Below, one piece after another: positions 1 to 806 of a stretch of 806 bases of DNA. The DNA comes from Escherichia coli. Lineage in GTDB: Bacteria > Pseudomonadota > Gammaproteobacteria > Enterobacterales > Enterobacteriaceae. Where the stretch lies: NCBI RefSeq assembly GCF_003334385.1, contig NZ_QOWN01000144.1; one strand, 5' to 3'. The notes beneath the pieces are model-generated. The model made no database searches. It was not told the origin of the DNA and worked only from the letters and a program-made list of their open reading frames with translations. Made by a program: the position numbers and the translations under genes. Each line of letters starts with the position of its first letter. Position 1 is the first letter of the stretch.

Positions 1-806
1 CATCCGATTCGGCATAAAAGGCTGCCTGGTCCTTAAGGCGTTCGCTCAGATACTGCGCGTTCTGTGCCCGTGCCTGTCTGTAAAAATCCTCACTGATATC
101 CCCGGTCTGATACTGAGACTGAAGGTCCGCATCCTTCTGGCGGAAGCTGTCGCGGATCTGCTGCAACTCCCGCATGCGTTCCCTGGCTCGTTCTCCCTGC
201 CCGTACCCCAGCAGTTCGGCTTCATTTGATGCACGCGCAGCCACATTATCATTCTTCAGGGTCTCTTCCCGGGATCGCAACTGTTCCCGGATTTTTTGCT
301 GGTCAATCAGGGCCGCGTTACGCAGCAGTTCCTGCTTCTGCATCTCCGTCAGGGTTTTCAGTTCGCCCTGCGCAGTCTGGTACTTCAGCTTCGCCAGCTC
401 TGTATTCTGACCCGCCAGTGCCAGTTGCTCTTTCTGCTGCTTCAGTAGCCGGGAAAAACTGTCTTCCGCTTTTTCCGTCTCTGATTTTCCACCCCGGGAT
501 TTAGGTTTGTTCGCCTCGTTATTACGCCAGGCTTCCAGAGCATTACTGATATAACGCTGTCTCGCCTCCTGATACGAATCCCCCACAAAACCAAGGTCAT
601 CCGCCGCATACCCCAGCCGGGCACGCTCTTTTTCCTCCCCCTTCAGTCGGGACAGGGCCAGCTCACGCTCTGTTTTTGTCAGGGCACTCTGCTGTTTATC
701 ATCCAGGGTGGCCTGTGGCAGCCGTAACGGTACATTCACCAGTCCCTGACGCTGCTGAAGCAGTTCATTCCCCAGCCCCAGCAGACGGTTGAATTCCGTA
801 TGCTGA
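1..806 (-). CDS. Partial CDS, internal fragment with both ends outside the window; probable phage tail length tape measure protein (lambda gpH-like), central helical/coiled-coil region
   Basis: Seen in sequence: the minus-strand frame with complete codons at 805..2 runs 268 sense codons with no stop, checked codon by codon. The same register on the plus strand contains TGA, TAG and TAA. Codon choice is enterobacterial-like: Gln almost always CAG (CAA twice), Leu mostly CTG. Composition is Q/E/L/R/A/K-rich with spaced hydrophobic residues, typical of long alpha-helical coiled coils. Inference: the product call rests on composition and on loose resemblance, recalled rather than searched, between the stretch ...NKPKSRGGKSETEKAEDSFSRLLKQQKEQLALAG... 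and the ...KKPKQSS...RQEDSAHAALLTLQAELRTLEKHAG... region of lambda gpH. No enzymatic motif is visible. Confidence that this is a real CDS is about 0.9; confidence in the tape-measure product is about 0.5. Confidence 0.7.

What the first reader, a model, noticed from the sequence alone, without database searches (positions are those of the whole stretch)
479..511. Basic Gly/Pro-containing break (NKPKSRGGKSE) between two helical blocks
This short stretch (protein residues 99-109 of the fragment) interrupts otherwise helix-favouring sequence and is the most AT-rich patch on the plus strand. It reads as a flexible basic hinge or linker. A similarly placed KPK-containing break is present in lambda gpH as I recall it, so it may be a conserved domain boundary. 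This is inference, not a demonstrated functional site.
Basis: inference. Interest (0 to 1): 0.18.

Follow-up and report, generated by a model that had tools for sequence, protein, structure and literature searches.

The report
Linker joint in phage tape-measure protein
The flagged stretch is a short, basic, non-helical joint between two modules of a lambda-like prophage tail tape measure protein; lambda's own protein has a matching joint, and it is an ordinary structural feature rather than a new system.

Summary
[quoted passage not shown] NKPKSRGGKSE lies exactly at 479-511 (TMP 696-706).

- **Break:** AlphaFold2 predicts helix 673-695, a 10-residue low-confidence break at 696-705, then helix 706-726.
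- **Lambda:** gpH has KKPK at 452-455. It shows the same predicted 10-residue break (453-462), and profile-profile alignment pairs the two.
- **Domain boundary:** The break lies in the gap between Pfam PF06120 (ends 694) and the lambda-type C-terminal domain (TIGR01541 starts 733). About 40 distant TMPs begin their homology there. It is also the right edge of a divergent cassette (469-701) relative to phage HK633.
- **Motif:** In close relatives it reads as a helix stop (A-N-K-P), a variable basic Gly/Pro spacer, and a helix N-capping box ([S/T]-[E/D]-x-E).

The "most AT-rich patch" claim holds only approximately. The break is one of eight in the fragment, and some relatives lack it. Any function beyond linking two modules is inference. 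Low novelty, low interest.

The parts
2..805 (-). Internal fragment (residues 598-865 of 1,088) of a lambdoid prophage tail tape measure protein gene. The frame is open across the whole window.
   Evidence: Translation. 99.8% DNA identity to the annotated TMP gene of E. coli SCU-104, and 99.4% to phage Lys8385Vzw. PHROG 339/19302, Pfam and NCBIfam matches.
479..511 (-). The flagged peptide NKPKSRGGKSE (TMP 696-706), a predicted non-helical, low-confidence joint between two helices.
   Evidence: Coordinates. AlphaFold2 gives coil at 696-705 with pLDDT below 50 at 698-705.
503..514 (-). Helix-stop element A-N-K-P (TMP 695-698). It ends helix 673-695, with Pro two residues after the last helical residue.
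   Evidence: In 21 relatives filtered at 90% identity: A695 81%, N696 67%, K697 90%, P698 76%. Helix end. Lambda has the same layout, with its helix ending at K452 followed by K453-P454.
485..502 (-). Variable basic Gly/Pro spacer K-S-R-G-G-K (TMP 699-704). It is an indel hotspot, and the mosaic junction lies between codons 701 and 702.
   Evidence: Position 703 is Gly or Pro in equal numbers, and K704 is 90% conserved. Length varies from absent to several residues longer among relatives.
473..484 (-). Helix-start element S-E-T-E (TMP 705-708), which fits the S/T-x-x-E N-capping box. The next helix begins at 706.
   Evidence: [S/T]705 95%, [E/D]706 95%, E708 90%, K709 95%. Helix 706-726. Lambda has S462-A-G-D465 before helix 463-489. 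The capping-box assignment is inference from general knowledge.
515..805 (-). C-terminal end of the HK97-type central region (Pfam PF06120 match 411-694). It includes short, confidently predicted helices at 633-695.
   Evidence: Pfam match ends at 694, model position 292 of 295. pLDDT is 71-91 over 631-690.
2..481 (-). Start of the widely shared, proline-free, lambda-type C-terminal module (TMP 706 onward). The TIGR01541 match begins at TMP 733, which is window 398-400.
   Evidence: TIGR01541 matches 733-1051 at 235 bits against a cutoff of 104.75. 41 distant TMPs begin their homology at 686-730. The next proline is a median of 250 residues downstream.

Best explanation
The segment is a structurally defined helix-break-helix joint, an inter-module linker, in the tail tape measure protein of a lambdoid E. 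coli prophage. It joins the HK97-type central region (Pfam PF06120, ending at residue 694) to the lambda-type C-terminal module. That module is homologous from about residue 700, and TIGR01541 matches it from 733.

**How it is built**
- A-N-K-P terminates the upstream helix.
- A short basic Gly/Pro spacer cannot be helical.
- A capping box [S/T]-[E/D]-x-E nucleates the downstream helix.

**How it most likely works (inferred)**
- The joint uncouples the two helical modules. Each can then pack, bind chaperones and, after ejection, refold independently.
- Because length and sequence are tolerant there, it is also the point where evolution has swapped modules.
- The C-terminal side has a nearly constant length in relatives. 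The N-terminal side varies and carries the differences in ruler length.

**Shown versus inferred**
- Shown: position, predicted break, conservation pattern, coincidence with domain-model edges, the mosaic junction, and the equivalent break in lambda gpH.
- Inferred: flexibility, the capping roles, and any function beyond linking.
For: - **Identity of the gene.** It is an annotated TMP lying between the tail assembly chaperone genes and a gpM-like gene. It matches TMP_3, PF06120, Tape_meas_lam_C, TIGR01541 and TIGR02675.
- **Predicted break.** Helix 673-695, coil 696-705 with pLDDT below 50, then helix 706-726.
- **Lambda gpH.** KKPK at 452-455, and a predicted break at 453-462 of the same 10-residue length. 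hhalign pairs the two KPK elements, and the default local alignment starts at TMP 700 / lambda 460.
- **Domain edges.** PF06120 ends at 694 and TIGR01541 starts at 733.
- **Homology starts.** 41 long distant TMPs begin their homology at 686-730, against about 5 between 441 and 685.
- **Mosaic junction.**
  - Salmonella relatives are unrelated upstream and near-identical from GKSEAEK onward.
  - The HK633 cassette 469-701 is 26% identical, against 66% elsewhere.
  - The DNA identity switch lies at codon 702.
  - DNA similarity of mEpX1, HK633 and mEp234 begins inside the break.
- **Motif conservation.** K697 90%, P698 76%, K704 90%, [S/T]705 95%, E708 90% and K709 95%, with an indel-prone middle.
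- **Module lengths.** A proline-free stretch extends a median of 250 aa downstream. The C-terminal part measures 340-419 aa in 52 of 66 relatives, while the N-terminal part ranges from about 400 to 800 aa.
Against: - The break is missing in 2 of 13 subfamily representatives (P0119, P0127), so it is not indispensable.
- Only 36 of 66 distant relatives have their last upstream proline at equivalent positions 672-707.
- It is one of eight predicted breaks in the fragment, so a break as such is not special.
- The AlphaFold2 models are monomers of moderate to low quality (mean pLDDT 65.5 and 54.4, pTM 0.32). In the virion the protein is an extended trimer or hexamer (PMC12617516).
- No solved structure covers this region.
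- Local alignments may start here simply because residues 711-745 are the best-conserved motif.
- Residue-level alignment with lambda is ambiguous by about 17-20 residues.
Confidence: 0.7

Rival explanations
1. Neutral scar. The stretch is only a tolerated loop left at an old recombination junction, with no selected role beyond not disrupting the protein.
For: - Two subfamily representatives lack it entirely.
- The middle of the motif varies in length and sequence.
- Identity downstream of the junction is only moderate, so the mosaic is old.
- The composition test is marginal at 4.7% of shuffles.
Against: - Flanking positions K697, P698, K704, [S/T]705, E708 and K709 are 76-95% conserved among sequences filtered at 90% identity. 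That is more conserved than many neighbouring positions.
- WRNNxANKPK is nearly invariant in relatives that are only 53-68% identical overall.
- An analogous break is predicted in lambda gpH.
Confidence: 0.13
2. Specific basic docking patch. The Lys/Arg cluster binds an acidic partner, such as the tail-tube lumen, the G/GT-type assembly chaperone, the DNA end or a host envelope factor, and so fixes the register of the protein.
For: - It is the most positively charged 11-mer in the fragment.
- Basic character is kept even where the sequence varies (AKGGK, RKGPK, AHKK, KKTPK, KKPKKPG).
- Lambda's counterpart is also basic.
Against: - No direct evidence for any partner. The binding-site mapping papers were not available.
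- The patch is followed immediately by an equally conserved acidic stretch (E706, E708, E711, D712). This suits helix capping and local charge balance as well as it suits docking.
- The patch is absent in some relatives.
Confidence: 0.1
3. Proteolytic maturation site, comparable to the processing of lambda gpH to gpH*.
For: Exposed basic loops are typical protease targets, and TMPs of several phages are processed (PMC12617516; PMC5099701).
Against: [quoted passage not shown] It leaves the N-terminus unchanged (PMC12617516).
- The lambda counterpart of this break is at 452-462, about 250 residues away.
- No signal of any kind points to cleavage here.
Confidence: 0.03

Closest known systems
Bacteriophage lambda gpH (tail length tape measure protein), break at residues 452-462
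   Same: - Same protein family over the C-terminal 390 or so residues (BLASTP E = 2e-20; hhalign probability 100%).
- K-P-K lies at the end of a helix.
- The predicted non-helical stretch is 10 residues long and has low confidence.
- A Ser-x-x-acidic motif precedes the next helix.
- The distance from the break to the C-terminus is similar (about 392 against 401 residues).
   Different: - The N-terminal 450 residues of lambda belong to another Pfam family (TMP_2 PF06791 rather than TMP_3 plus PF06120).
- Lambda has QSSVKVS where this protein has SRGGKSE.
- One pairwise alignment route offsets the two breaks by about 17 residues.
HK97/HK633-type tape measure proteins (Pfam PF06120 Phage_HK97_TLTM)
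   Same: Same overall architecture and exactly the same length as HK633's protein (1,088 aa), at 57% identity. HK633 has a basic Gly-containing break at the same place (NSSRHKGGKSEAEK).
   Different: HK633 has no proline in the break. Residues 469-701 are a divergent cassette at only 26% identity that ends inside the break.
Generic inter-domain linkers and helix capping motifs (N-capping box S/T-x-x-E; Pro after a helix C-terminus)
   Same: Pro/Gly-rich, indel-tolerant, of low predicted confidence, flanked by conserved capping-type residues, and coincident with the edges of curated domain models.
   Different: Its flanks are better conserved than a purely passive linker would need. Flexibility itself was not measured.

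Membership tests
Phage tail tape measure protein with lambda-type C-terminal domain (TIGR01541 / PF09718) | Match to the curated C-terminal domain model above its cutoff | tested here: met
   TIGR01541 scores 235.3 bits against a cutoff of 104.75, over residues 733-1051. PF09718 matches 870-941 with E = 7.6e-18.
Phage tail tape measure protein with lambda-type C-terminal domain (TIGR01541 / PF09718) | N-terminal tape-measure domain | tested here: met
   TMP_3 PF20155 matches 83-272 with E = 1.1e-56. TIGR02675 scores 80.6 bits against a cutoff of 21.35.
Phage tail tape measure protein with lambda-type C-terminal domain (TIGR01541 / PF09718) | Gene lies between the tail assembly chaperone genes and the gpM-like minor tail gene | tested here: met
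   In both an E. coli prophage and phage Lys8385Vzw the order is major tail, chaperone, T-like protein, TMP, gpM-like, L, K-like, I-like, J.
Phage tail tape measure protein with lambda-type C-terminal domain (TIGR01541 / PF09718) | Long, predominantly alpha-helical protein | tested here: met
   AlphaFold2 predicts helices over most of residues 16-950. The window fragment is 78% helical.
Phage tail tape measure protein with lambda-type C-terminal domain (TIGR01541 / PF09718) | Protein length sets tail length | not testable with these tools
   This needs deletion mutants and electron microscopy. The only hint is indirect: HK633 keeps exactly 1,088 aa despite a replaced cassette.
Inter-domain linker | No regular secondary structure, and low confidence in structure prediction | tested here: met
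   Coil at 696-705, with pLDDT below 50 at 698-705.
Inter-domain linker | Coincides with the edges of independent domain models and with where homology starts | tested here: met
   PF06120 ends at 694 and TIGR01541 starts at 733. 41 distant relatives begin their homology at 686-730.
Inter-domain linker | Tolerates insertions, deletions and substitutions | tested here: met
   Length ranges from absent to several residues longer among representatives, and the middle positions are variable.
Inter-domain linker | Physically flexible or protease-accessible | not testable with these tools
   This needs limited proteolysis, hydrogen exchange, NMR or cryo-EM. No solved structure covers the region.
Counterpart of the lambda gpH KPK break | Lambda gpH has a KPK-containing predicted helix break | tested here: met
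   KKPK at 452-455. AlphaFold2 predicts coil at 453-462 between helices 433-452 and 463-489.
Counterpart of the lambda gpH KPK break | The two breaks occupy the same alignment position | tested here: inconclusive
   Profile-profile alignments, both global and permissive local, pair NKPK with KKPK. The default local alignment starts just after it. A pairwise alignment through P0116 offsets them by about 17 residues, while one through P0230 agrees. They lie in the same inter-module gap, but residue-level equivalence is uncertain.
TMP proteolytic maturation site (lambda gpH to gpH*) | [quoted passage not shown] | tested here: not met
   The break corresponds to lambda 452-462. The cleavage region is taken from PMC12617516.

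The most novel reading that the evidence does not exclude
The joint is a programmed hinge. After ejection from the tail, the tape measure protein folds back at this conserved break and its neighbours to build the tube that carries DNA across the periplasm. The nearly constant length of the C-terminal module in relatives would then reflect the geometry of the tip complex and cell envelope, not chance. A recent Ur-lambda study modelled gpH 320-691 as a tube-forming hexamer, and that segment contains lambda's 453-462 break.
Probability: 0.08. Interest if true: 0.5.

Novelty: already known. Interest (0 to 1): 0.15.

Why it matters
There are three modest points of value.

- **Construct design.** The break gives a rational boundary for structural work on lambda-like tape measure proteins, which have so far resisted structure determination apart from their last 30 or so residues.
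- **Engineering.** It marks a natural splice point for building chimeric or length-altered tape measure proteins, and so tails or tailocins of designed length.
- **A possible constraint.** The nearly constant C-terminal module, set against a variable N-terminal part, suggests which half of the protein carries tail-length differences.

None of this changes the current understanding of tape measure proteins.

Tried and rejected
- **Nucleotide-level explanations.** No Rfam match at E up to 1 on either strand. No promoter-like or terminator-like site. Only short chance-level repeats. No plus-strand ORF of note. This is a protein feature.
- **Solved structures.** The PDB holds lambda gpH, F-pyocin-type and other TMP chains. 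Sequence matches are to the N-terminal or C-terminal domains, and published maps resolve only the last 30 or so residues. Nothing covers the break.
- **Proteolytic site.** Rejected, because lambda's cleavage is near residue 700, not 452.
- **Experimental mapping papers.**
  - The chaperone-binding paper (Xu, Hendrix and Duda 2014, PMC3907469) and the gp15 exclusion paper (Cumby et al. 2012, PMC3430355) are not held.
  - The Cumby et al. 2015 paper on the HK97 TMP did not appear in the full-text search. I could not check whether the cassette ending at the break carries host-factor specificity.
  - Katsura's deletion endpoints in lambda gene H could not be retrieved either.
- **Composition profile from ungapped extension.** Extending upstream of a downstream anchor without gaps was too smeared by indels to show a sharp Gly/Pro peak. 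The last-proline analysis replaced it.

Full report
**What the window is**

Only one frame is open across all 806 bases: the minus strand from base 805 to base 2, giving 268 residues. The DNA is 99.8% identical to part of an annotated "phage tail tape measure protein" gene in an E. coli prophage (strain SCU-104). It is 99.4% identical to Escherichia phage Lys8385Vzw and to several Stx-converting phages. 1,280 of 5,426 complete E. coli genomes carry a match.

In both annotated contexts the gene follows the major tail protein and the tail assembly chaperone genes. It precedes homologues of lambda M, L, K, I and J. The full tape measure protein (TMP) is 1,088 residues, and the window covers residues 598-865. 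Domain models found:

| Model | Residues |
|---|---|
| TMP_3 (Pfam) | 83-272 |
| Phage_HK97_TLTM, PF06120 (Pfam) | 411-694 |
| Tape_meas_lam_C (Pfam) | 870-941 |
| TIGR01541, lambda-type C-terminal domain (NCBIfam) | 733-1051, 235 bits against a cutoff of 104.75 |
| TIGR02675, N-terminal domain (NCBIfam) | 157-231 |

PHROG 339 (tail length tape measure protein) covers the whole protein.

**Checking the observation**

NKPKSRGGKSE is residues 99-109 of the fragment and maps exactly to 479-511. This is TMP 696-706. It contains one of three prolines and the only Gly-Gly pair in the fragment. It overlaps the most positively charged 11-residue window.

The AT-richness claim is only roughly right. 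The segment has GC 0.455 against 0.556 overall, but 20 of 774 windows of the same length are lower. The lowest start at 454-456, adjacent and partly overlapping. At a 58-base scale the two lowest windows both overlap the finding.

Composition alone is weak evidence. 4.7% of shuffles of the fragment contain an 11-mer at least as rich in Pro, Gly and Lys/Arg, and the test was chosen after the fact.

Nothing exists at the nucleotide level. There is no RNA family match, no promoter-like or terminator-like site, and no meaningful repeat.

**Is it a helix break?**

AlphaFold2 was run on the full protein with 31 aligned sequences (mean pLDDT 65.5). It gives helix 673-695, a non-helical stretch at 696-705 with pLDDT below 50 at 698-705, then helix 706-726.

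The picture of "two helical blocks" is too simple, however. The fragment is 78% helical with eight breaks. This one (10 residues) is second in length to 617-632. Upstream, three short helices at 633-695 are predicted with good confidence (pLDDT 71-91 over 631-690). The helices downstream score around 66-77.

**Conservation**

Among enterobacterial relatives that are only 53-68% identical overall, WRNN[E/Q/D]ANKPK is almost invariant. The next residues vary but stay basic and Gly/Pro-rich (AKGGK, RKGPK, AHKK, PKGRHGK). The sequence then returns to a conserved xEKxED.Y.RLIKQQKEQIAL.

In 21 sequences filtered at 90% identity, conservation is:

| Position | Conservation |
|---|---|
| A695 | 81% |
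| K697 | 90% |
| P698 | 76% |
| 703 | Gly or Pro in equal numbers |
| K704 | 90% |
| [S/T]705 | 95% |
| [E/D]706 | 95% |
| E708 | 90% |
| K709 | 95% |

I read this as three elements:
- a helix stop (A-N-K-P, with Pro two residues past the last helical residue);
- a basic spacer that cannot be helical;
- an N-capping box (S/T-x-x-E), placed exactly where the model starts the next helix.

The capping assignment is inference from general knowledge of helix caps.

The middle is an indel hotspot. Two of 13 representatives of the subfamily (P0119, P0127) lack the break altogether, so it is not indispensable.

**Is it a domain boundary?**

Four independent lines say yes.

1. **Curated model edges.** The break lies in the 38-residue gap between the end of PF06120 (694, model position 292 of 295) and the start of TIGR01541 (733).
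2. **Where homology starts.** I searched 1.84 billion representative proteins with residues 521-953. 41 long, distant TMPs (25-35% identical) begin their homology at residues 686-730, while only about five begin between 441 and 685.
3. **A mosaic junction.**
   - Salmonella relatives have unrelated sequence upstream and near-identical sequence from GKSEAEK onward.
   - Against phage HK633's TMP, a two-changepoint fit isolates a cassette at 469-701 that is 26% identical, compared with 66% elsewhere.
   - At DNA level the switch lies at codon 702.
   - DNA similarity of phages mEpX1, HK633 and mEp234 begins inside the break.
4. **Different properties on the two sides.**
   - Downstream, the next proline is a median of 250 residues away across 66 relatives.
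   - The distance from a fixed anchor (residue 736) to the C-terminus is 340-419 residues in 52 of 66 relatives.
   - The N-terminal part ranges from about 400 to 800 residues.

Many distant relatives have a Lys/Pro/Gly/Ser/Thr-rich patch just before the conserved module. Examples are LKPKPSKPTPTGNK, RPSGSDKKPKKPGS, KDPKTPKPKQ and DKGGTNGKPKTD. This is partial, though. The last upstream proline falls at equivalent positions 672-707 in 36 of 66 relatives.

A caveat applies to the second line. Local alignments may start here partly because residues 711-745 are the best-conserved motif.

**The lambda comparison**

Lambda gpH has KKPKQSSVKVS at 452-462. BLASTP aligns the two proteins confidently only from residue 741 of this protein (lambda 477) onward.

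I built alignments of the two subfamilies and compared them profile to profile. The global and the permissive local alignments pair NKPK 696-699 with KKPK 452-455. The default local alignment begins at residue 700 (lambda 460), immediately after it.

Pairwise routes disagree. One, through P0116, offsets the two by about 17 residues. Another, through P0230, agrees with the profile result.

AlphaFold2 on lambda gpH (18 sequences, mean pLDDT 54.4) predicts helix 433-452, a 10-residue break at 453-462, then helix 463-489, with pLDDT below 50 from 454. The next helix is preceded by S462-A-G-D465, again a capping-type pattern. The distances from the break to the C-terminus are about 392 and 401 residues.

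Residue-for-residue equivalence is likely but not certain.

**What it most likely does**

The best-supported reading is a defined helix-break-helix joint. It links an exchangeable central region to a constant-length, lambda-type C-terminal module.

The published background:
- TMPs are extended helical rulers at about 1.5 angstroms per residue (PMC5099701).
- Lambda's protein is present in six copies, and only residues 818-849 are resolved.
- gpH is cleaved near residue 700 to give gpH*.
- gpH* is the candidate for the channel across the periplasm. Hexamer models of segments 1-319 and 320-691 form tubes (PMC12617516).

A joint at this point would let the two modules pack, bind chaperones and later refold independently. 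That step is inference.

Rivals are a neutral recombination scar, a basic docking patch for an acidic partner, and a protease site. The protease site is effectively excluded by its position relative to lambda's cleavage region. The most novel reading still open is a fold-back hinge used when the ejected protein builds the periplasmic tube. I give that a low probability.

**Verdict**

It is a small, ordinary structural feature of a very well known, correctly annotated protein family, and its boundary is already implicit in curated domain models. Novelty is low and interest is low. The practical value is as a boundary for structural constructs and a splice point for engineering.

Noticed in passing
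L001:7018-8181 (E. coli SCU-104 prophage, downstream of the TMP gene): A gene annotated as porin OmpC sits inside the tail operon, between the gpM-like gene and minor tail protein L. Phage Lys8385Vzw has no gene at that spot. It looks like a moron insertion.
   Followed up: no
window 701-748 (TMP 617-632, QGLVNVPLRLPQATLD): A second, longer predicted helix break (16 residues, two prolines, pLDDT below 50).
   Followed up: partly
window about 482-493 (GGT GGA AAA TCA GAG on the coding strand): Several database proteins (P0056, P0050, P0038) carry frameshifted stretches that begin or end at the A4 run inside the break. These are probably sequencing errors or pseudogenes.
   Followed up: no
L004:444-3707 (phage HK633 TMP) compared with L001:3211-6474: Both proteins are exactly 1,088 residues long, although residues 469-701 are only 26% identical. 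Length appears to be preserved while the sequence was replaced, as expected for a ruler.
   Followed up: partly
TMP residues about 700-986 (window 2-499 and beyond): There is a proline-free stretch of roughly 290 residues downstream of the break. It is shared by nearly all 66 relatives examined, and the next proline is a median of 250 residues from the anchor at 736.
   Followed up: partly
Whole TMP family (66 relatives): The C-terminal part, from the anchor at 736 to the end, is 340-419 residues in 52 of 66 relatives. The N-terminal part is bimodal, at about 400-500 and 700-800 residues. Tail-length differences seem to reside upstream of the break.
   Followed up: partly
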